A stretch of 8,041 nucleotides of DNA from a virus (lineage: Duplodnaviria > Heunggongvirae > Uroviricota > Caudoviricetes): IMG/VR virus record IMGVR_UViG_2737471861_000016; one strand, 5' to 3'. The number at the start of each line of letters is the position of its first letter. The stretch's first letter is position 1. This document shows, in pieces, positions 1-8,041 of this stretch. The notes beneath the pieces were generated by a model, which worked only from the letters and a program-made list of their open reading frames with translations, had not been told where the DNA came from and searched no databases. Position numbers and translations under genes: made by a program.

Positions 1-149
1 TCCTTTCATGAAAATACGCAATATCAATCATCCAGCGCGTTAAAAGCTACGTAGCTCATCAAGAGTCTAAGCAGAAGTCTTTCCGTGTTAGCCAGAAGTG
101 GAAACAACGTGCAAAGCTTGCCCTTGCTGGTGAACAACGTCTTACAAAG

Positions 150-1151
150 ATGGTTCCCGGATGGATTGACCCCGATACTTTCAAGTGCAATGAACACGCT
201 GAGACTGTAAGACTGATTTTCAAGCTGCTGCTAGATGGTGAAAGTCTGCATAACATCGCCCGTCACCTACAGGCTAATAACATTAGTTCATTCTCACGGC
301 GTAAAGATGCTAATGGTTTTAGCGTTCATTCTGTGCGTACTATCTTAAGGTCAGAGACAACGAGAGGTACACTACCAGCATCACAGCGCAATGACCGCCC
401 CGCTATACCGAACTACTACGAAGCCGCTATAGATGCTGCAACGTTCAATAAGGCTCAAGAGATTCTCGACAAGAATCGTAAAGGCCGCACACCTGCAAGT
501 GATAACCCATTAACGATTAACATCTTCAAAGGTCTGTTTAGGTGTCAGTGTGGGGCTAGTGTCCATCCTACCGGAACAAAGAATAAGTATGCTGGGGTCT
601 ACAGGTGCAATAACCACTTAGACGGTCGCTGTGATGTTCCACCGTTGAAGCGTAAACCGTTTGATAAGTGGATGATTGATAATTTTCTGGGGATGATTGA
701 CGTGGGGAATGATGGAGAAGCAGAGGGGAAGATTGCATCTCTACAGCATGAGGTTGAAATTGTCACAACCAGAATCAAGAAAGCTACCGCCCTACTTCTT
801 GAGATGGATGATATTACAGAGTTGAAAACACAGGTGAAGGAACTGAACCAGAAGCGCACAGAACTACAGACCACGATTGATAGCATGAGGCGTAAAACTT
901 CACTCAGTGATAAGGGATTACCCCAACTTAAAGATATTGACCTTATGACTAAAGAGGGTCGTGTCGAGTGTCAGTTGATTTTGTCCAAGCATCTAAAAGG
1001 GCTTACATTGGGTAAGGATTCGGTAACTGTAACGCTACAGAACGACACTGAAATAACCATACCTACAGACCCGCTACCGCTAAATGATGGAACATCAATC
1101 TTTGAAATTGCTGAGAAAAATCTTTTGAATATTGACACTTTCCAACTGTAG
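150..1151 (+). CDS. Large serine recombinase, C-terminal portion (recombinase domain, zinc ribbon, coiled coil); catalytic domain not present in this ORF
   Basis: Translation matches the serine-recombinase 'recombinase' domain pattern (IDPD...ETVRLIFKLLLDGESLHNIARHL...FSVHSVRTILRSETTRG), followed by a Cys-rich zinc ribbon (FRCQCG...YRCNNHLDGRC) and a long coiled-coil stretch. No Shine-Dalgarno precedes the ATG at 150, and the in-frame upstream codons 12-149 encode a helix that looks like the end of the catalytic domain, so the ATG is probably an internal Met. Confidence 0.8.
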   Translation: MVPGWIDPDTFKCNEHAETVRLIFKLLLDGESLHNIARHLQANNISSFSRRKDANGFSVHSVRTILRSETTRGTLPASQRNDRPAIPNYYEAAIDAATFNKAQEILDKNRKGRTPASDNPLTINIFKGLFRCQCGASVHPTGTKNKYAGVYRCNNHLDGRCDVPPLKRKPFDKWMIDNFLGMIDVGNDGEAEGKIASLQHEVEIVTTRIKKATALLLEMDDITELKTQVKELNQKRTELQTTIDSMRRKTSLSDKGLPQLKDIDLMTKEGRVECQLILSKHLKGLTLGKDSVTVTLQNDTEITIPTDPLPLNDGTSIFEIAEKNLLNIDTFQL

Positions 1152-1159
1152 CAATCAAT

Positions 1160-1178
1160 CAGGGGGCTATGCCCCCCT
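1160..1178. terminator. Bidirectional intrinsic terminator candidate between convergent genes
   Basis: GGGGGC (1162-1167), loop TAT, GCCCCC (1171-1176), lying between the recombinase stop (1149-1151) and the stop of the minus-strand gene (1183-1185). The flanking T tracts are weak on both strands. Confidence 0.5.
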
Positions 1179-1182
1179 TCTA

Positions 1183-1971
1183 TCAATATCTCTTGTTCGG
1201 ATTCACTGAGTACTTTTTAAGCTTTGAAGCTACTCGACCAGCGTTACTGTTAGCATTGGTGACGTTGGTTTTTTCAGCTTCTGTTAAGTCTGAATAGTCC
1301 AGCTTCCAAGCCTTATTACATTTAATCTGAGCATCGAGAATATCATTTCTGATAGCTGGAGCGTAACCGGATACATCGTTAATACTCATTAGCTCTTTGC
1401 ACGATAGCATAGGCGCGTTATTGCGTTCAGTGGTCACGTTACCTGCATTCTTCTTACTGGTCACACCACCGTCATTTGTAGTAGCAGTCTTTCCAGTTGC
1501 AGCCGAAATATCAGTTTGTCCCACGACAGCTTTAAAGTTAATTTCCTGAAAAGTTAGCTGGATACGAAGACCGTTAGAGATAGTAACATCTTTAGAGGCT
1601 TTAAAGCTCGTAATAATGGAATCATCAATCTTGATACCGTCTTTACAGATAACTGAAATAATTTGCTTCTGGTCTCTCCAGCTCTCAAGAGTGTCAATGA
1701 AGTTTTCTACTAATTGACCCTGACGAGTTAATAATAAGCTCCCTTCATAGCCAACTACAACGACACCACTAATAGTGATTGTTCTGGGTGCTCTTTGCAC
1801 GTTATCTGTAACGGTTTGCCCTGATTGCATGTTCTGTGTAGTTACCTGCATAGGACTATCAAATTCCATGTTCTCAGTTGCTGATAAGGTTAAGAAGGCA
1901 TCTACATTATCTCTTAAGTGGAAATAGATGCCGTCTTTGCCACTGTAGCGGATTTGATTGCTAAAAATCAT
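1183..1971 (-). CDS. Hypothetical protein (262 aa) immediately downstream of the tape measure gene; possible tail component by position only
   Basis: ORF with an internal ATG at 1971-1969 preceded by AAGGAG at 6-nt spacing (minus strand AAAGGAGAATTTAATG). The track's upstream TTG at 1992 lacks an RBS. No motif recognised. Confidence 0.6.
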
Positions 1972-1988
1972 TAAATTCTCCTTTGATT

Positions 1989-2032
1989 TCAAAGGCTTAG
2001 TGTATTTTAATCATTTTTAACCAAGCCTTTGA
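1989..2032. promoter_or_regulatory. 10-bp perfect inverted repeat (TCAAAGGCTT / AAGCCTTTGA) with 24-bp spacer, just upstream of the RBS of the 262-aa gene
   Basis: Arms at 1989-1998 and 2023-2032 are exact reverse complements. No T tract follows on either strand, so this looks like an operator or RNA structure rather than a terminator. Confidence 0.45.
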
Positions 2033-2127
2033 TATATAAGTACTTTCTCTGTTAAGCGTGAGCTACGTAAATTCTATTTTTCAGTGCGGGTATTAACTTT
2101 GCTTTATTCACGTAGAACACCGTTAAA

Positions 2128-4308
2128 TCAATCATCTTCTGGGAATGATGAACTCAATAACGTAGCCTCTGCATATTGGTCATACAGACTGCTGTTAAAT
2201 GTCATAAAGCTGGTTTCATCTGGTTTAATAGCAACTTCACCACCAAGTGAAACTTTCACAGGCTCCTGAATACGTTTACTCAAAGCAGAGATTTCATCCC
2301 TCAGACTTTGAATATCTGCACTCGTTAATGCTGAATCTTGCTTAATATTGTTTAATTCTGGATGATTGAATCTTGCAATATTCATTGTGGCATTGTTAAA
2401 CAATTCACCCATTGAACTAAAAATTTTACTCCACCCCTCATTAATCATATTCGGTTTATTAGGGTCACCAGAATACACAGGATTAAAGTCACTACCCACA
2501 CCTACCCCAGATGGATGCATATTAGCGTTTTTGACTACTTCCTGATTCATAAAATCCAGTGCTTTCTTCAATGCATATAAACCAAGAGTGACACCTCTGA
2601 TTTGTGGAATCATTGAAGCTAATGCTAACGCTGTTTCATAACCGTCATCAGCATAACCAATTGCAAGAGCACTACCTACACCACCAGCTACACCTTTCAG
2701 TTTTCCACCACCTTTACCAGTAGCTACCTGACCAGCCACCTGATTAGCTCTTGTACCTAACGTTGTGATTGCTCTTGTCAGGTTCATAACCCCTGTAGTA
2801 GCACTGAATAGTGTCTTTGCAGATAACGCTATAGCAAGACCTTTGACGAAGTTGATAAAACCATCACCGACTTCATCAAGTAGTTTTCGTTTAGTGTCAT
2901 CAAGGCTGTAATAGAACTTCTTAGTCTGTAAAATCCAGCCTTCAAGGTGATTGTTAAAGATACGGATGTCATCTACACCAGCTTTAAGCATGTCGATAAG
3001 TCCACCGATAGCATCACCAGCGATAGAAGAACTCATCCCCATTTCACTAAGCAAGCTACTCATGCTGGATAAGAAGCCATTTAGCTCATCCTGTGAACCT
3101 GAGAAGATTTTCACCATCGTATCATCCCAGTTGTTTGCTAACTTACCTAAAGCTGTCTGTGTGCTCTTAGCGACTTCAGCCCAGCCACCCGCTTTATCAA
3201 TCATCAAGCCCATCTGTTTAGCGACTTTAGGGAGAGTATCAGCGGAAAGCACCTTCCCGTCTTTCATCGCTTTATCAAGCTCTGTAGCAGTCATACCCAA
3301 TGCTTCAGCGAATAGCTTAAATGCACCAGCCATACGGTCACCTAACTGACCACGAAGCTCTTCAGCCTGAATCTTGCCCTTAGAAGCCATCTGCTCAAAA
3401 GCTTTCAAAATGCCGTTTAGCTCATCGTTAGAAAGCCCCATTAAGCGACTCATAGCTGTTGCATTACCAAATAGTTGTTGTGTCTCATCCTGTGACATAG
3501 AACCCTGAGCACCTGCTGCAAACTTAGCGTAGCTTGATAGCCCTTCAGAGATATTAAGACCTGTCTTGTCTGCTAAATTTCGAATAAATACCTCAGCTTC
3601 AGATGCTTTATCACCAAGTACAAACTTAGCGGCTCTCTGTGCGGAATCTCGTTTAAGACCTGCATTCATGATGGCCTTGTAAGCGTTAAGAGCACCCATC
3701 ACAGAGTAAAATGCACCAGATAATTTAATCGCATTGCTTGCAAGATTATTAAATGCGTCGCTTGTATTGTTAATGCTGGTGGTCTTTGTCTGTGACCTGA
3801 GTTTATTCAACGTTTCACGAAGAGATTGATTTAATTTTGCAAGTTCAGCGTTAAACTTTTCACTTCCAATATTACCAGCCTTACCGCTTAAGCTGTAATA
3901 CTGTGCTTTAAACATTTTAGCCATCAGCGGATTAATATCACCAAGCTTAGACATATTCACGCTATGTGCCGCTGTGATTGCTCTGTTGCCGCTAATTCGT
4001 GGCTGTCTTGATTGTTTTGGAGGATTAACAGTGTCATTAAATCTGGTGGCAAACTGAAATACTTTTGTGTTTCTTGCTCTCTGTTCAATCTTGTCAAAGG
4101 TCTTATTAAACTTCCTTTCAAGTTGCCCTAAAGAACTTGTCAGATTGCTGTCAAGTTGCTTGGTATCGACCTTAAACGCTCTATTCAAATTACGTTCAAT
4201 TCTTTGTGCTGACTGCAAAGCTGCCTTTTCAACTCTTTGCAAGCCCTTAATAACGTTCTCGCTGAAGCCTAGCTCAACGATAAAACTATCAACTGTGAAT
4301 TTGCTCAT
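2128..4308 (-). CDS. Phage tail tape measure protein (726 aa)
   Basis: Contains the tape-measure signature KGKIQAEELRGQLGDRMAGAFKLFAEALGMTATELDKAMKDGKVLSADTLPKVAKQM, which resembles the lambda gpH segment ELNKALKDGKILQADYNTLM. It also has a Gly-rich hydrophobic region (GKGGGKLKGVAGGVGSALAIGY) and a long helical N-terminus. RBS AGAGGTGAAAC precedes the ATG. Confidence 0.85.
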   Translation of the reverse strand: MSKFTVDSFIVELGFSENVIKGLQRVEKAALQSAQRIERNLNRAFKVDTKQLDSNLTSSLGQLERKFNKTFDKIEQRARNTKVFQFATRFNDTVNPPKQSRQPRISGNRAITAAHSVNMSKLGDINPLMAKMFKAQYYSLSGKAGNIGSEKFNAELAKLNQSLRETLNKLRSQTKTTSINNTSDAFNNLASNAIKLSGAFYSVMGALNAYKAIMNAGLKRDSAQRAAKFVLGDKASEAEVFIRNLADKTGLNISEGLSSYAKFAAGAQGSMSQDETQQLFGNATAMSRLMGLSNDELNGILKAFEQMASKGKIQAEELRGQLGDRMAGAFKLFAEALGMTATELDKAMKDGKVLSADTLPKVAKQMGLMIDKAGGWAEVAKSTQTALGKLANNWDDTMVKIFSGSQDELNGFLSSMSSLLSEMGMSSSIAGDAIGGLIDMLKAGVDDIRIFNNHLEGWILQTKKFYYSLDDTKRKLLDEVGDGFINFVKGLAIALSAKTLFSATTGVMNLTRAITTLGTRANQVAGQVATGKGGGKLKGVAGGVGSALAIGYADDGYETALALASMIPQIRGVTLGLYALKKALDFMNQEVVKNANMHPSGVGVGSDFNPVYSGDPNKPNMINEGWSKIFSSMGELFNNATMNIARFNHPELNNIKQDSALTSADIQSLRDEISALSKRIQEPVKVSLGGEVAIKPDETSFMTFNSSLYDQYAEATLLSSSFPEDD

Positions 4309-4338
4309 TCATGTTTCACCTCTTAAGTGTTCATATAC

Positions 4339-4379
4339 GAAAAAGGGGAGGACCAACCAATTAAGGTTAATCTCTCCCC
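4339..4379 (-). terminator. Intrinsic terminator or attenuator candidate in the 93-bp gap directly upstream of the tape measure start
   Basis: On the minus-strand transcript: GGGGAG (pairs 4374-4379 with 4345-4350), an inner AACC/GGTT stem around AATTAA, then CTCCCC followed immediately by TTTTT. About 30 nt further on lies the tape measure RBS. Confidence 0.5.
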
Positions 4380-4401
4380 GTATTCACCCAACCAATCTTT
4401 T

Positions 4402-4611
4402 TTAATGCCTGACAAGATAATGTAGTTCCGTTTCACCTATAATTTGAGCATCGGAAGGGATACGGTCGATACACCACTTTGGAATCTTGCGTGTTTTTGG
4501 TTTGTGTGAGGTGATAACTTGACGTTTGTTTTTAATTCTTAAGGCTGGATTGGCTTGTAACTTTAAGTTTTCACAAACAGACCGAATAGTCTCTAAACGC
4601 TCTTCAAACAT
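4402..4611 (-). CDS. Hypothetical small basic protein (69 aa)
   Basis: ATG at 4611-4609 preceded by AAGAGGTGATTA, almost the same RBS as the tape measure gene. An in-frame stop lies just upstream, so it is not a frameshift extension of the 235-aa gene. Confidence 0.5.
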   Translation of the reverse strand: MFEERLETIRSVCENLKLQANPALRIKNKRQVITSHKPKTRKIPKWCIDRIPSDAQIIGETELHYLVRH

Positions 4612-4634
4612 TAATCACCTCTTTTAATTCATAG

Positions 4635-5342
4635 TTAAAGTGCCTTTGCATATTTCTGAGAAATCTTCGTAAGCTGCTCAATATCAGCCTGCATAGCAAC
4701 CTTCTTCTGCGACTCATATTCACTAACAAGGTCTTTCATAGCCTGAAGCTCTCTTGAGAGATACAACTTAACATTATCAAGTTGCTTGTTACGTGATGCC
4801 AAGATGTTCTGTCTGGCAAGTTCACAGAGTTCTTCATCGCTCTTATTAGTCATGTAAATAAACTGACCAGCACCTCTTGATGCCTTAACCATCTTCACAA
4901 TTCGGTGTCCATCAGGAAGATTATTAATCACGTCTGGGATATTCTCAGGAAAAGTACCAAAACCATCATTGTCTTCATATTGGTGATAAACAAATGGTTT
5001 CTGTGACAATTCATCCTGAATCTCAAATTCTGACGGTTCAATAGCTGATTGCATCAGGGTAACTTTGCTGTAAGCGTCATCTAATCTAAGACGCTGTGCT
5101 TTTAAAGCTGGGTAATATTTCTTTTCAAGCTCAAGCAATGCTTCAGTTTTGCAGATATCAGGCATTTCTTGAGGTTCAGGGGCCACAAAGGTGATTTCTT
5201 TTGGCGACCTCTTTAACTCTTGCTCAAACTTAATTCTTTCATCGTGCTCTTTGCGCTGAATAGCGATAGCTGGATGTTCAGTCTGTGGTGACCAGTCACC
5301 GAAGCTATCAATCTTTTTACCGTTAATATATAGATTTTCCAT
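4635..5342 (-). CDS. Hypothetical protein (235 aa) with a charged, probably coiled-coil C-terminal third
   Basis: ATG at 5342-5340 preceded by AAGAGGA at 7-nt spacing. C-terminal region (ELARQNILASRNKQLDNVKLYLSRELQAMKDLVSEYESQKK) is helix-like. No family recognised; it does not look like a beta-rich major tail protein. Confidence 0.6.
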   Translation of the reverse strand: MENLYINGKKIDSFGDWSPQTEHPAIAIQRKEHDERIKFEQELKRSPKEITFVAPEPQEMPDICKTEALLELEKKYYPALKAQRLRLDDAYSKVTLMQSAIEPSEFEIQDELSQKPFVYHQYEDNDGFGTFPENIPDVINNLPDGHRIVKMVKASRGAGQFIYMTNKSDEELCELARQNILASRNKQLDNVKLYLSRELQAMKDLVSEYESQKKVAMQADIEQLTKISQKYAKAL

Positions 5343-5351
5343 TTCATTTTC

Positions 5352-5413
5352 CTCTTCTAAGTATATTCAGTTTTTAAAAAGCACACCTGACAGCCTATCT
5401 AAACTTAGAAGAG
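5352..5413 (-). promoter_or_regulatory. 11-bp perfect inverted repeat whose downstream arm overlaps the Shine-Dalgarno of the 235-aa gene (possible RBS-sequestering hairpin)
   Basis: CTCTTCTAAGT (5352-5362) and ACTTAGAAGAG (5403-5413) are exact reverse complements. In the minus-strand mRNA the 3' arm ACUUAGAAGAG runs into the SD AAGAGGA. The 40-nt loop contains nested TCAG/CTGA and a TTTTTAAAAA palindrome. Confidence 0.45.
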
Positions 5414-5577
5414 ACTTAAAAGGCGGTTTGCCAAGTATGCTTTTTAAAAGCTGAAAAAAGCCCTAAACATAGGTGATTCGGATATTCATGGAATCATCCT
5501 TATCTGTGAAGGGCTTTGAAGGTTTGCTTATAACGTTAACGAAGTTTCAGGAAAAACTTTCTTTAAAAGTTCTGTTT

Positions 5578-5616
5578 GAAAACTCTTAAAGAAACGCCCT
5601 AACTCATGATTAGGGC
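5578..5616 (-). terminator. Intrinsic terminator or attenuator candidate inside the long leader
   Basis: Minus-strand transcript: GCCCTAA (5616-5610), loop TCATGAG, TTAGGGC (5602-5596), followed by GTTTCTTTAAGAGTTTTC. The plus-strand orientation has no U tract. Confidence 0.45.
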
Positions 5617-5763
5617 AAAGCTGTAAGGGTTCAATAATGAATGATTAAGCACTTTTTGAGATGACCTCTCAGACTAAACTGAAAGGCCATGACGAAAAGC
5701 ATTGCACCTTTCCAATCAGAATATAGTTATCATCGATGTAGAGACGATTAATAGTTTAATTCA

Positions 5764-5780
5764 GGAAGAGTTGCTCTTCC
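5764..5780. promoter_or_regulatory. Perfect 7-bp stem, 3-nt loop hairpin (GGAAGAG ttg CTCTTCC)
   Basis: Exact inverted repeat at 5764-5770 and 5774-5780. It lies just downstream (minus-strand sense) of the candidate promoter at 5789-5817. No U tract follows, so it is a 5' stem-loop or protein-binding site rather than a terminator. Confidence 0.4.
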
Positions 5781-5788
5781 CTATTACC

Positions 5789-5842
5789 ATCATCTCATGC
5801 TTAAGATTATTTGTCAACAGCTTTTTAACAGATTGGTAACAT
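5789..5842 (-). promoter_or_regulatory. Candidate minus-strand promoter and operator: TTGACA -35 with weak -10, plus three phased (C/T)AACA(G/T) repeats
   Basis: Minus-strand TTGACA (plus 5812-5817), 17-bp spacer, GATGAT (plus 5789-5794). The plus strand carries CAACAG 5815-5820, TAACAG 5826-5831 and TAACAT 5837-5842 at exact 11-bp spacing. The core TTGTCAACA is shared with the 7197-7205 promoter region. Confidence 0.4.
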
Positions 5843-5918
5843 TAATTCTTATTTACCGTGTTACCTACCCAGCAACCAACAAATAAACCCAAAGCTGTCC
5901 AAGCAATTATTAAGCCCA

Positions 5919-6242
5919 TTAATGCACCACCTTCGAATCCGTAACCAAAATATTGTCAGCGTACAAAATTTCTATAGCTGCCTTGAGATATTTTTCAGGG
6001 CTAACGCTGTATTTGTTCGTTTGCTCGATAACCAATCTTTTCATGTTGCTGTCTTTAATTGGTAGCATCATTCGAGGCTCGTTAAACTCCACCGACTGAA
6101 TAAAGTCAGAGATGTTTTCTGCATTATCAGCCATCAAAGCTAACAGCCGGTCAAAGTCAATGCTAATACCTGCATCAATGAAGCTTTGCACCATCATAGC
6201 GGTGTCGTTATCAACGAAAATCTGTAGCGGGTAATTGTTCAT
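5919..6242 (-). CDS. Hypothetical acidic protein (107 aa)
   Basis: ATG at 6242-6240 preceded by AGGAGA at 9-nt spacing. No recognisable motif. Confidence 0.6.
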   Translation of the reverse strand: MNNYPLQIFVDNDTAMMVQSFIDAGISIDFDRLLALMADNAENISDFIQSVEFNEPRMMLPIKDSNMKRLVIEQTNKYSVSPEKYLKAAIEILYADNILVTDSKVVH

Positions 6243-6412
6243 TTCTTAAAATCTCCTTTTTCACCAGACCTCCTCAATCGCTCTGTAACGAGCTAAACAG
6301 TCTTTTTCAGGGGTAGCCTGTAGGGGTGTACCACATACCCTAAAATAAGATAGTTTTTTGCGTTAGAATGCGATTGAGAGCGTCTGAGAGTGGGTAAACC
6401 CGTTTTTTGCCT

Positions 6413-6622
6413 TTAGTCTGAGACTATTAACCCCATCTCACTATGAAATTGACTAAACCAGCTTTTTGTTACTGAGGTTTTTAGTGTGAAAGATGGGGAT
6501 TGCATAATCAGATAGATGCCATCATTATCAATGTCACCCCATCCATTATGTACATCAATTAGATTTCGAAAATATTTAAAGGCTTTGTCTGTTTTAAGTT
6601 TGAGGGTGAATACTTTCTTCAT
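6413..6622 (-). CDS. Hypothetical protein (69 aa), translationally coupled to the upstream gene
   Basis: ATG at 6622-6620 overlaps the TGA of the upstream gene (ATGA overlap) and is preceded by GGGGGAAAGA. The track's TTG at 6634 is an unlikely start. Confidence 0.55.
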   Translation of the reverse strand: MKKVFTLKLKTDKAFKYFRNLIDVHNGWGDIDNDGIYLIMQSPSFTLKTSVTKSWFSQFHSEMGLIVSD

Positions 6623-6849
6623 TCTTTCCCCCAATTCTTAATGAGTTCACAGGCCCGTTTAAATTGAGTCGGGTCACTATAATCAAGCTCGATATCCAGT
6701 GACTTTAATTCATAGCGTAACTGCTCAATTTGATGTGGCTTTAGTCTTTTCTTGTTACGGTCAAGCGTAACATCTTCATATTCTTTTGAGCGGGTATCTT
6801 GCCTGATTAGATGTGATGCCAGTTTATAAAATTTGTACCTATAACACAT
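6619..6849 (-). CDS. Hypothetical basic protein (76 aa), translationally coupled to the RHH-like gene
   Basis: ATG at 6849-6847 overlaps the TAA of the upstream gene (TAATG) and is preceded by GGGGG. No family recognised. Confidence 0.55.
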   Translation of the reverse strand: MCYRYKFYKLASHLIRQDTRSKEYEDVTLDRNKKRLKPHQIEQLRYELKSLDIELDYSDPTQFKRACELIKNWGKE

Positions 6850-7139
6850 TAAACCCCCAGCTTATCCGCCAGTTGATGAACCTTAGCGCTTAACACCTGA
6901 ATCATTGAGCAACCTGTTACAGCGGACTGTGCTTTGAGTAGTTCCAGTTGGCCCGTTGTGATTCTGATGGCCTTAGAACCCTCTGCAACGCCCTTAACGT
7001 TATCAAAAGGGGTAAGGGCTACCGACTCTTTTAAAAGCTCTCCAACAAGCGCCGTGTGCTTCATATCGGGATATTTGGTTTTGATTGCTGCCAGTCGTTC
7101 AAATGCCTCTGGCAAAAGGCGCGTAACTGTGTGAGTCAT
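6849..7139 (-). CDS. Putative ribbon-helix-helix (CopG/Arc-like) DNA-binding regulator, possibly two tandem RHH-like units (96 aa)
   Basis: N-terminus HTVTRLLPEAFERLAAIKTKYPDMKHTALVGELLKESV fits the RHH pattern (beta strand, then LPEEL-type helix, then helix B). A second similar unit follows (KAIRITTGQLELLKAQSAVTGCSMIQVLSAKVHQL). Strong promoter and AAGGAG RBS upstream. Confidence 0.5.
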   Translation of the reverse strand: MTHTVTRLLPEAFERLAAIKTKYPDMKHTALVGELLKESVALTPFDNVKGVAEGSKAIRITTGQLELLKAQSAVTGCSMIQVLSAKVHQLADKLGV

Positions 7140-7174
7140 TGTAAAATCTCCTTAAATCTCTTACTCATACTACA

Positions 7175-7203
7175 ATCTTAACATTTATTTAACATATTGT
7201 CAA
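7175..7203 (-). promoter_or_regulatory. Sigma70-type promoter candidate for the RHH-led operon
   Basis: Minus-strand TTGACA (plus 7198-7203), 17-bp spacer, TAAGAT (plus 7175-7180). AAGGAG RBS sits 8 nt before the ATG at 7139. Confidence 0.6.
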
Positions 7204-7217
7204 CATCTCATTTACAT
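7179..7217. repeat. Four hexamer repeats (T/C)(A/T)ACAT phased at exactly 11 bp across the divergent promoter region (operator candidate)
   Basis: TAACAT 7179-7184, TAACAT 7190-7195, CAACAT 7201-7206, TTACAT 7212-7217. Confidence 0.55.
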
Positions 7218-7225
7218 GTTAATAT
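7197..7225 (+). promoter_or_regulatory. Sigma70-type promoter candidate for the small plus-strand ORF, back-to-back with the minus-strand promoter
   Basis: TTGTCA (7197-7202), 17-bp spacer, TAATAT (7220-7225) with an upstream TG (extended -10). Its -35 overlaps the minus-strand -35 by 5 bp. Confidence 0.5.
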
Positions 7226-7275
7226 GGTTATAGGGGCTGATACAGGTCATTCCCTTTGATAAATAAGGGGAATTA

Positions 7276-7461
7276 ATGGGCTTTCTTGAAACAATTGCTG
7301 AATCTCACAGATTCGCAAGCTTAGGTTGCTTTGTGTTTTTGGTGCTTCTGGTGTATCAGCTTTTAAAAATGATTATCGCCAAAAGTACACGATTCAATTT
7401 CAGCATTAAGTTTTTCAAATATGAAATCACAATTACGATTGATGATGGTAAAACAAACTAA
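7276..7461 (+). CDS. Small hydrophobic single-pass membrane peptide candidate (61 aa)
   Basis: ATG at 7276 preceded by AAGGGG at 5-nt spacing and by the plus-strand promoter. Contains one predicted transmembrane segment (LGCFVFLVLLVYQLLKMII). Its stop overlaps the stop of the convergent HNH/AP2-like gene. Confidence 0.4.
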   Translation: MGFLETIAESHRFASLGCFVFLVLLVYQLLKMIIAKSTRFNFSIKFFKYEITITIDDGKTN

Positions 7462-7751
7462 CGTTTTGTGATGATATTGGTGGCTCTCAGATTACCGGGG
7501 TCACCGTCTTTTAATCGTAGCTGGTGGACTGAATCCCAGATATCATAATGATACAGCACTGCAAACCTCAAAGCGTCAATCTTTAAATCTGTCACACCAT
7601 CGTAAAAGAAATAATAATCTCTCCCTTCCTTCTTCGGTCTAATCCGGTAAACTTCCCCGTGAGTATCCTTCATAAGATGACCTTCACGAGAAATGCGGTA
7701 ACGCTTTAACAGGCAATCTTTGTATCTCTTTTCACCGTGATATTCTTTCAT
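7458..7751 (-). CDS. HNH_3/AP2-like domain protein (97 aa); the canonical catalytic His position appears substituted
   Basis: Pattern YRISREGHLMK...ALRFAVLYHY...LRLKDGDPGNLRATNI resembles HNH_3/AP2-type domains (VHRLVAEAF...NHKDGNKTNNRxxNL). ATG at 7751-7749 is preceded by GGAGG at 9 nt and overlaps the upstream TAA (TAATG). The track's GTG at 7757 is too close to the RBS. Confidence 0.4.
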   Translation of the reverse strand: MKEYHGEKRYKDCLLKRYRISREGHLMKDTHGEVYRIRPKKEGRDYYFFYDGVTDLKIDALRFAVLYHYDIWDSVHQLRLKDGDPGNLRATNIITKR

Positions 7752-8041
7752 TAGCACATACCTCCACCAGCAAAATACATCTTCGGTTTAATTTTTTGCT
7801 TCTTGTCATCCTGAGTTTGTTTCTTTTTCGGTGTGAAAGAAAAGTCATCATCGTCACTGTCATCGAATGGGTCTAAACCCGATACTTTGTTCTTTTGTCT
7901 TGCAAGCTCGAATCTCTTTTTCTTCTCTACCCTCTTAATGGCTTTTTCACGTTCTGACTCTTCATCCTCTTCATCATCATCGAAGGGGTCCATCTCATCA
8001 TCAGTGGCGGGGCACTGTGTGCTGATGAATCCCCTAATGAT
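7751..8041 (-). CDS. Acidic/basic low-complexity protein with two DPFDD(D/S) repeats; 5' end probably outside the window
   Basis: The reading frame stays open to the window edge (...TDDEMDPFDDDEEDEESEREK...GLDPFDDSDDDDFSF...KKQKIKPKMYFAGGGMC). There is no convincing RBS before the ATG at 7993. It is translationally coupled to the downstream HNH/AP2-like gene. Confidence 0.5.
   Translation of the reverse strand: MIRGFISTQCPATDDEMDPFDDDEEDEESEREKAIKRVEKKKRFELARQKNKVSGLDPFDDSDDDDFSFTPKKKQTQDDKKQKIKPKMYFAGGGMC

What the first reader, a model, noticed from the sequence alone, without database searches (positions are those of the whole stretch)
1..1151. Serine recombinase separated from its catalytic domain by an in-frame TGA
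ORF 150-1151 holds only the recombinase, zinc-ribbon and coiled-coil domains. The same frame upstream (12-149) translates to KYAISIIQRVKSYVAHQESKQKSFRVSQKWKQRAKLALAGEQRLTK, which looks like the end of a resolvase catalytic domain, but it is preceded by TGA at 9-11 and all three frames hit a stop within the first 54 nt. There is no SD before ATG 150. This suggests a nonsense-disrupted integrase (immobilised element), a split gene, or a sequencing error.
Basis: partly seen in the sequence, partly recalled or inferred. Interest (0 to 1): 0.55.

Follow-up and report, generated by a model that had tools for sequence, protein, structure and literature searches.

The report
Integrase gene cut by insertion sequence
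The "in-frame TGA" is the outermost tip of a common E. coli insertion sequence (ISEc12) that has cut a prophage-like island's serine integrase gene in two, and the short-read contig simply stops inside that repeat; this is an ordinary gene disruption, not a nonsense mutation or recoding.

Summary
The sequence facts are correct: ORF 150-1151 carries only the Recombinase and zinc-ribbon domains, the same frame is open from nt 12, and TGA sits at 9-11. The window is a Logan short-read contig (SRR2239598_224) with 10 nt trimmed from each end. The contig's first 30 nt (window 1-20) are identical to the outer end of the left inverted repeat of ISEc12 (IS21 family), a sequence found about 5,000 times in 1,679 complete E. 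coli genomes. The TGA and the "K-Y-A" codons lie inside that repeat end. Homology to intact 506-aa E. coli large serine recombinases starts at nt 20/21, which is codon 130/131. Those intact alleles read ...DALSDDLG|ISIIQRV... with no stop. Window 21-116 does encode the tail of the catalytic domain, but the nucleophile Ser11 lies upstream of the junction. Thirty nt equals k-1 for Logan's k=31, and the other contig end stops the same way 30 nt into IS10. The integrase belongs to an ~11-kb island integrated on the tonB start codon, and this gene is often broken in E. coli. Verdict: a real disruption of a known kind, of low interest.

The parts
1..20 (+). Outer 20 nt (of the 30 on the contig) of the left inverted repeat (IRL) of an ISEc12-type IS21-family element. 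Nt 20 is the terminal A of the element and by chance also matches the gene.
   Evidence: L001 1-30 is identical to the element end next to istA in L002 (11754-11783) and L003 (6001-6030), and to the 30-mer at L004 3001-3030 and L008 1-30. A 32-nt query (the 30 nt plus 2) hits 4,997 places in 1,679 genomes.
8..43 (+). Short ORF (MKIRNINHPAR*) that starts at the outward-facing ATG inside the IRL. Here it is out of frame with the recombinase.
   Evidence: Sequence. The same ATG gives an in-frame MKIR-recombinase fusion in P0018/L008.
21..1151 (+). 3' portion (codons 131-506 plus TAG) of a large serine recombinase gene, with no further defects.
   Evidence: Its translation is identical to residues 131-506 of the allele reconstructed from NZ_AP042701.1. 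It is 93% identical to 506-aa P0001/P0002.
21..116 (+). Tail of the Resolvase catalytic domain (residues 131-162). I read this as the long E-helix region from general knowledge of the fold. The nucleophile Ser11 is not present.
   Evidence: PF00239 spans residues 4-162 of the intact protein. The profile alignment to the TP901-1 integrase catalytic domain 3bvp puts the YxRxS motif at residues 7-11.
189..476 (+). Recombinase domain (PF07508).
   Evidence: residues 14-109 of ORF 150-1151, E 1.6e-15.
522..665 (+). Zinc beta-ribbon domain (PF13408), with Cys residues in FRCQCG...YRCNNHLDGRC.
   Evidence: residues 125-172, E 1.1e-6. The cysteines are invariant in alignment A1.
8022..8041 (+). First 20 nt (of 30 on the contig) of an IS10/ISVsa5 terminal repeat. 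This is the repeat-bounded other end of the contig, inside a replication-initiator-like gene.
   Evidence: Homology to NZ_AP042701.1 stops at 8021. The 30-mer abuts an ISVsa5 (IS4-like) transposase gene in L006 and occurs 4,431 times in 1,709 genomes.

Best explanation
The window begins 20 nt inside the left inverted repeat of an ISEc12-type (IS21-family) element. That element abuts codon 130/131 of a 506-aa large serine recombinase gene, the integrase of an ~11-kb island integrated at the tonB start codon in E. coli. The insertion, or an adjacent deletion derived from it, separates the catalytic domain (Ser11, residues 1-130) from the rest of the protein: the E-helix tail, Recombinase domain, zinc ribbon and C-terminal region. 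What remains in the window is a catalytically dead 3' fragment.

The in-frame TGA is simply the 'TGA' of ...TTTCATGAAAATACGCA, the repeat tip. The contig stops there because the assembler (k=31) cannot extend through a multi-copy repeat, so exactly k-1 = 30 nt of repeat remain at each contig end.

Shown:
- the identity of the 30-mer
- the breakpoint
- the domain content
- the intact alleles

Inferred:
- that a full 2.6-kb IS, rather than its 62-bp miniature derivative, lies to the left
- that the fragment is not expressed as a functional protein
- that the island is immobilised in this strain
For: 1. The window is contig SRR2239598_224 minus 10 nt at each end.
2. All E. coli genome matches start at nt 20 and end at 8021. 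The best is 100% identical over 20-8021.
3. A base-by-base comparison shows that the intact gene reads ...GATGATTTAGGA|ATATCAATC..., whereas the contig reads TTGAGTGATCTCCTTTCATGAAAATACGCA|ATATCAATC.
4. The same 30-mer terminates annotated ISEc12 copies (istA/istB) in L002 and L003. It is an imperfect inverted copy of the other end, with 8-bp target duplications ATCTTACT and ATCACTTG. The element in L002 is 2,581 bp.
5. A 32-nt query (the 30 nt plus 2) gives 4,997 copies in 1,679 of 5,426 genomes, median 3 per genome.
6. An independent Logan contig (L008) starts with the same 30-mer joined to the same gene 66 nt further downstream.
7. The right end of the contig is 30 nt of IS10/ISVsa5.
8. [quoted passage not shown] ISEc12 junctions are known to truncate short-read contigs and to split genes such as tssM (PMC10711316).
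9. Intact alleles carry Resolvase + Recombinase + Zn ribbon.
Against: - The other junction (5' gene part joined to IRR) and the body of the element are not on this contig. Neither the presence of the N-terminal part in this sample, nor a target-site duplication, nor the size of the element could be verified.
- A search for the predicted N-terminal fragment found neither the predicted product nor any product traced to this sample.
- No complete E. coli genome has this exact junction.
- The nearest genome has ISEc12 in the same orientation 227 nt upstream. The window's junction may therefore come from a deletion next to that IS rather than from a fresh insertion.
Confidence: 0.9

Rival explanations
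1. The element to the left is not a full 2.6-kb ISEc12. It is the 62-63-bp miniature derivative (IRR 30 nt + TA + IRL 30 nt), so the gene is interrupted by a tiny MITE-like insertion. This insertion still introduces stops and a frameshift.
For: Such a miniature element exists (L004 2970-3030). It is present at >=80% coverage in 604 of 5,426 complete E. coli genomes. It shares the same terminal 30-mer, so the contig end cannot tell the two apart.
Against: The closest genome (100% identical island) carries a full ISEc12 in the same gene and orientation. L003 also has a full copy in this gene.
Confidence: 0.12
2. A genuine nonsense mutation (or TGA recoding/readthrough) within an otherwise continuous recombinase gene.
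For: TGA at 9-11 is in frame with ORF 150-1151, and the frame is open from nt 12.
Against: Nt 1-19 have no similarity to the recombinase gene, where intact alleles read ACAAGGGATGCTCTATCCGATGATTTAGG. They are instead 100% identical to an IS terminus. The other ORFs of the window read as ordinary bacterial-code genes.
Confidence: 0.01
3. An assembly or sequencing artefact: a chimeric join of an IS end to an intact gene, or a gene that is intact and merely cut by the window edge.
For: The junction lies at a contig end, and the exact junction is absent from 5,426 complete genomes.
Against: Logan discards k-mers seen only once and builds contigs from a k=31 graph. About 30 junction-spanning 31-mers must therefore each occur at least twice in the reads. 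An intact allele in the same sample would create a branch and end the contig at the junction rather than 30 nt beyond it. The pattern of 30 nt of repeat at both ends is what real IS insertions produce, and L008 shows the same pattern independently.
Confidence: 0.04

Closest known systems
Large serine recombinases / phage-type serine integrases (TP901-1 Int, Bxb1 Int, A118 Int class)
   Same: The intact alleles have the defining architecture of Resolvase catalytic domain + Recombinase domain + zinc ribbon. They have a YxRxS nucleophile motif that aligns to the TP901-1 Int catalytic domain. The gene sits at the edge of an integrated element flanked by a short direct repeat, and the reconstructed attP has inverted arms.
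   Different: The family is very distant in sequence from all solved LSRs: a single-sequence search of the PDB found nothing, and a profile gave only E 4.6e-4 to 3bvp. The copy in the window lacks residues 1-130 and so cannot be an active member. The element it serves is an 11-kb island without capsid genes, not a complete prophage.
ISEc12 (IS21 family) gene disruption, e.g. tssM in E. coli ST131 clade C
   Same: The terminal sequence is the same. The element splits a gene into two pseudogene fragments, and short-read contigs are truncated at the junction (PMC10711316).
   Different: Only 30 nt of the element are on the contig. The target duplications seen in this gene in other strains are 8 bp, against 5 bp reported for tssM. 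The window's junction may be a secondary deletion next to the IS.
Integrase pseudogenes of defective prophages and islands (general phenomenon)
   Same: The recombinase is lost by IS insertion or deletion, fixing the element in the chromosome. Many different truncated forms of this same gene exist.
   Different: Nothing unusual, apart from the number of separate ISEc12 junctions seen in this one gene: codons ~60, 130, ~152 and ~291.

Membership tests
Large serine recombinase (serine integrase) | N-terminal resolvase-type catalytic domain (PF00239) with the nucleophilic serine | tested here: not met
   In the window only residues 131-162 of the domain are encoded, and Pfam gives no PF00239 hit. 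Intact alleles meet this feature: residues 4-162, with Ser11 in YLRFS. The window copy is therefore a fragment of a member, not a functional member.
Large serine recombinase (serine integrase) | Recombinase domain (PF07508) following the long E helix | tested here: met
   Window 189-476, E 1.6e-15, full-length match to the profile.
Large serine recombinase (serine integrase) | Zinc beta-ribbon domain (PF13408) with conserved cysteines | tested here: met
   Window 522-665, E 1.1e-6, 29.4 bits against a cut-off of 25.3. C305, C307, C326 and C334 are invariant in A1.
Large serine recombinase (serine integrase) | Coiled-coil motif inserted in or following the zinc ribbon | tested here: inconclusive
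   There are only weak sub-threshold hits to coiled-coil-rich families at ORF residues ~189-300, plus a heptad-like sequence by eye. No structure prediction was run.
Large serine recombinase (serine integrase) | Element bounded by attL/attR with a short common core; attP with inverted arms | tested here: met
   Tested in related loci, not in the window. A 13-bp direct repeat TCAAGGGTCATTG flanks the island in L005 and L002 relative to the empty K-12 site. The reconstructed attP has CCGAATAG...CTATTCGG arms. Both att sites lie beyond the ends of the window's contig.
ISEc12 / IS21-family insertion | Terminal inverted repeat beginning TG... and matching the known element end | tested here: met
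   30/30 identity to the IRL of PGAP-annotated ISEc12 copies. IRL is TGCGTATTTTCATGAAAGGAGATC and IRR is TGCGTATTACCGTGAAGGAGATC.
ISEc12 / IS21-family insertion | istA/istB genes adjacent to the terminus | not testable with these tools
   The contig ends 30 nt into the repeat. These genes are present in L002 and L003. A 62-bp derivative without genes also exists.
ISEc12 / IS21-family insertion | Target-site duplication at both junctions | not testable with these tools
   The other junction is not on the contig. The predicted N-terminal product was not found, and none of the products returned was traced to this sample. 8-bp duplications are seen in L002 and L003.
Nonsense mutation / stop-codon recoding | Stop codon embedded in sequence homologous to the gene on both sides | tested here: not met
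   Sequence 5' of nt 20 is unrelated to the gene and identical to an IS end.

The most novel reading that the evidence does not exclude
The truncated integrase itself is ordinary. The element it belongs to may not be. It is a ~11-kb island family in E. coli and Citrobacter, integrated exactly on the tonB start codon. Its contents:
- the serine integrase
- a replication-initiator-like gene
- a Dam methylase
- a tape-measure gene and a Dit-like baseplate gene that are ~90% nt identical to those of virulent Felixounavirus phages
- no capsid genes

The integrase found no relative in the one pattern-based scan of IMG/VR viral contigs. The island could be an undescribed satellite or tail-interference island of FelixO1-like phages that also supplies a surrogate, Fur-box-bearing tonB promoter. 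On that reading, the repeated IS hits in its integrase would record domestication.
Probability: 0.12. Interest if true: 0.6.

Novelty: already known. Interest (0 to 1): 0.1.

Why it matters
For the finding as given, the main value is as a caution. A stop codon within about k-1 nt of a short-read contig end, next to a truncated gene, is the signature of an insertion-sequence junction, not of a nonsense mutation or recoding. Biologically it shows one more strain in which the integrase of the tonB-site island has been knocked out, so the island is probably fixed in the chromosome there. The island's position on the tonB start codon and its Felixounavirus-like tail genes are the only aspects worth a separate look.

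Tried and rejected
- Nonsense mutation or recoding: rejected by base-level alignment to intact alleles.
- Single-sequence search of the PDB with the intact protein: no hits. A profile gave only a weak hit to the TP901-1 catalytic domain.
- Search for the predicted N-terminal product of this sample (…DDLGISIAYYREGDR, or the 64-aa H21-type …GKHLTCVLP): neither was found. The search returned only other truncated forms. Simple insertion versus IS-adjacent deletion therefore remains unresolved.
- Search for the exact junction in 5,426 complete E. coli genomes: absent. The two full-coverage hits are two pieces 227-260 nt apart.
- IMG/VR scan for relatives of the integrase: none confirmed.
- GTDB species-representative scan: one locus, Citrobacter sp. 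ANG330, at the same tonB site.
- Literature search for a described tonB-site serine-recombinase island, and for Felixounavirus satellites: nothing relevant.
- At first I took the hits annotated 'IS110/IS66 family transposase' to mean an IS110-type element. This was rejected once L004 showed a 62-bp ISEc12-derived miniature element inserted in that gene.

Full report
**1. What is in the sequence**

- ORF 150-1151 (333 aa) is listed. It matches Pfam Recombinase (PF07508, E 1.6e-15) and Zn_ribbon_recom (PF13408, E 1.1e-6), with no Resolvase hit.
- Frame 3 translated from nt 3 gives LS*KYAISIIQRVKSYVAHQESKQKSFRVSQKWKQRAKLALAGEQRLTKMVPGW..., so TGA is at 9-11 and the frame is open from nt 12.
- Read directly, the other two forward frames stop at 41-43 (TAA) and 52-54 (TAG), and no Shine-Dalgarno-like motif precedes ATG 150.

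**2. Where the window comes from**

The 333-aa product is on record on a single contig, Logan SRR2239598_224 (8,061 nt). The window is that contig minus 10 nt at each end. The sequence cannot be extended upstream from this contig, because only 10 more bases exist.

**3. The gene is a fragment of a 506-aa large serine recombinase**

- A protein search with the 379-aa translation of 12-1148 finds 506-aa E. coli "recombinase family" proteins. They are ~93% identical over 99% of the query and carry PF00239 + PF07508 + PF13408 (sequences).
- In an intact allele (strain E203449, L005 7612-9132) the Resolvase domain covers residues 4-162, the Recombinase domain 187-282 and the zinc ribbon 298-345.
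- A family profile aligns weakly to the catalytic domain of TP901-1 integrase (3bvp, E 4.6e-4). This places the YxRxS nucleophile motif at residues 7-11.
ATG 150 is the internal Met177 codon, which is Asn in P0001.

**4. The TGA is not in recombinase sequence**

- Every match of the window to complete E. coli genomes begins at nt 20 and ends at nt 8021. This includes a 100%-identical match to NZ_AP042701.1.
- Base by base, the intact gene reads ...ACAAGGGATGCTCTATCCGATGATTTAGGA|ATATCAATCATCC (T R D A L S D D L G | I S I I). The contig reads TTGAGTGATCTCCTTTCATGAAAATACGCA|ATATCAATCATCC.
- The translation of window 21-1151 is identical to residues 131-506 of the allele reconstructed from NZ_AP042701.1.
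- The TGA at 9-11 and the codons K-Y-A at 12-20 therefore belong to foreign DNA.

**5. The foreign DNA is the tip of ISEc12**

- A 32-nt query (the contig's first 30 nt plus 2) occurs in 4,997 places in 1,679 of 5,426 complete E. coli genomes. The median is 3 copies per genome, on both chromosomes and plasmids.
- In L002 and L003 the 30-mer is the outermost sequence next to istA of elements that PGAP names "IS21-like element ISEc12".
- In L002 the element is 2,581 bp and is flanked by the 8-bp duplication ATCTTACT. In L003 the duplication is ATCACTTG.
- The two ends are imperfect inverted repeats: TGCGTATTACCGTGAAGGAGATC... and TGCGTATTTTCATGAAAGGAGATC....
- ISEc12 is documented to split genes and to truncate short-read contigs at its junctions. 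An example is tssM in ST131 (PMC10711316).

**6. Why the contig stops there**

- Logan contigs come from a k=31 de Bruijn graph. In it all 31-mers are distinct, and k-mers seen only once are discarded.
- A unique region that abuts a multi-copy repeat therefore ends exactly k-1 = 30 nt into the repeat. That is what is seen on the left.
- The right end behaves the same way. Homology to NZ_AP042701.1 stops at window 8021. The last 30 nt of the contig are the terminal repeat next to an ISVsa5 (IS4-like) transposase gene, and that 30-mer is present 4,431 times in 1,709 genomes. From memory this end is that of IS10.
- An unrelated Logan contig (ERR11473627_52496, L008) starts with the same 30 nt of ISEc12 joined to the same recombinase gene 66 nt further downstream. 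There the outward-facing ATG of the repeat is in frame, and the gene caller produced "MKIR"+recombinase (P0018).
- In the window that ATG (nt 8-10) is out of frame and gives only MKIRNINHPAR*.

**7. What remains uncertain**

*7a. Full element or miniature derivative.* A 62-63-bp derivative (IRR 30 nt + TA + IRL 30 nt) shares the same tip and is present in 604 complete genomes. The body to the left of the window could be this derivative rather than the full IS. The nearest genomes carry full copies in this gene, so I favour the full IS.

*7b. Fresh insertion or adjacent deletion.* The 100%-identical relative NZ_AP042701.1 has ISEc12 in the same orientation but 227 nt upstream, at codon 60. The window's junction could be an independent insertion or a deletion next to that IS.

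*7c. Searches that did not settle it.*
- The predicted N-terminal products were not found. None of the truncated forms that were returned was traced to this sample.
- No complete genome has the identical junction.

None of this changes the verdict on the TGA.

**8. Context**

*The island and its integration site*
- The recombinase is the first gene of an ~11.3-kb island between tonB and yciI.
- Compared with the empty K-12 site, the island in L005 and L002 is flanked by a 13-bp direct repeat, TCAAGGGTCATTG. This repeat includes the tonB start codon.
- The reconstructed attP shows inverted arms CCGAATAG...CTATTCGG around that core.
In this sample they lie beyond the contig.
- The same island sits at the same site in Citrobacter sp. 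ANG330.

*State of the gene across E. coli*
- Of 225 complete E. coli genomes with this gene, 157 keep at least 80% of it in one piece.
- Many differently truncated products exist.
- ISEc12 junctions occur at four or more positions in the gene.
- Knock-out of this integrase is therefore common.

**9. Mechanistic reading**

- Shown: the catalytic domain, with Ser11, is not contiguous with the DNA-binding domains in this strain.
- Inferred: the 3' fragment is a pseudogene remnant. It has no ribosome-binding site, its only start is an internal Met, and the IS-derived ATG is out of frame.
- Inferred: the island cannot excise by its own integrase.
- Inferred: because the fragment has no further lesions and is 100% identical to a relative's allele, the disruption is recent.

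**10. Verdict**

This is a real feature of a well-known kind: an IS-split integrase gene at a repeat-bounded contig end. It is not a nonsense mutation, a recoding event or a sequencing error. Interest is low. The island itself sits on the tonB start codon and carries Felixounavirus-like tape-measure and Dit genes. It is recorded as a separate lead.

Noticed in passing
L005 7511-7523 and 18781-18793 (island 7524-18780); same in L002; L009 ~9900: The ~11.3-kb island carrying this recombinase is integrated exactly on the tonB start codon, with a 13-bp direct repeat TCAAGGGTCATTG. This moves the native tonB promoter 11 kb away. Island DNA now lies upstream of tonB. It contains a 13/19 Fur-box-like site (GCAATTGATTATCATTTAA) and a weak sigma-70-like site, in the 90-bp gap shared with the divergent integrase gene.
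   Followed up: partly
window 1183-1992 and 2128-4308 (minus strand): The Dit-like baseplate gene and the tape-measure gene are ~89-92% nt identical to those of virulent Felixounavirus phages of E. coli and Salmonella: 212 phage records, up to 1438-4317 in phage garuso. The island has no capsid genes. It has a replication-initiator-like gene and a Dam methylase. Its integrase found no relative in the one pattern-based scan of IMG/VR. It may be a satellite or interference island; this was not tested.
   Followed up: partly
window 8022-8041 (contig L001 8032-8061): The right contig end is 30 nt of an IS10/ISVsa5 terminal repeat. It is inserted in the replication-initiator-like HTH gene, which is intact at L002 19732-20709. 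In this strain the 8-kb segment is therefore bracketed by two different insertion sequences.
   Followed up: yes
L004 2970-3030: A 62-63-bp miniature element made only of the two ISEc12 ends (IRR 30 nt + TA + IRL 30 nt). Here it is inserted at the start of an IS110-family transposase gene. It is present at >=80% coverage in 604 of 5,426 complete E. coli genomes.
   Followed up: partly
window 8-43; L008 1-1091: The ISEc12 IRL tip carries an outward-reading ATG (ATGAAAATACGCA). When the insertion is in frame, gene callers emit chimeric 'MKIR'-prefixed proteins such as P0018 (357 aa, 13 member sequences).
   Followed up: yes
L002 9203-11783; L003 ~3450-6030; L008 1-30; window 1-20: ISEc12 abuts this one recombinase gene at four or more different codons (~60, 130, ~152, ~291), in both orientations. 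Many other truncations and an in-frame internal deletion (P0057) also exist. Only 157 of 225 complete genomes keep >=80% of the gene in one piece. Whether this reflects a hotspot, selection or chance was not tested.
   Followed up: partly
L002 22272-22814: In NZ_AP042701.1, whose island is 100% identical to window 20-8021, a 180-aa small serine recombinase (Resolvase + HTH_7) lies at the yciI-proximal end of the island. No such gene is annotated in L005.
   Followed up: no
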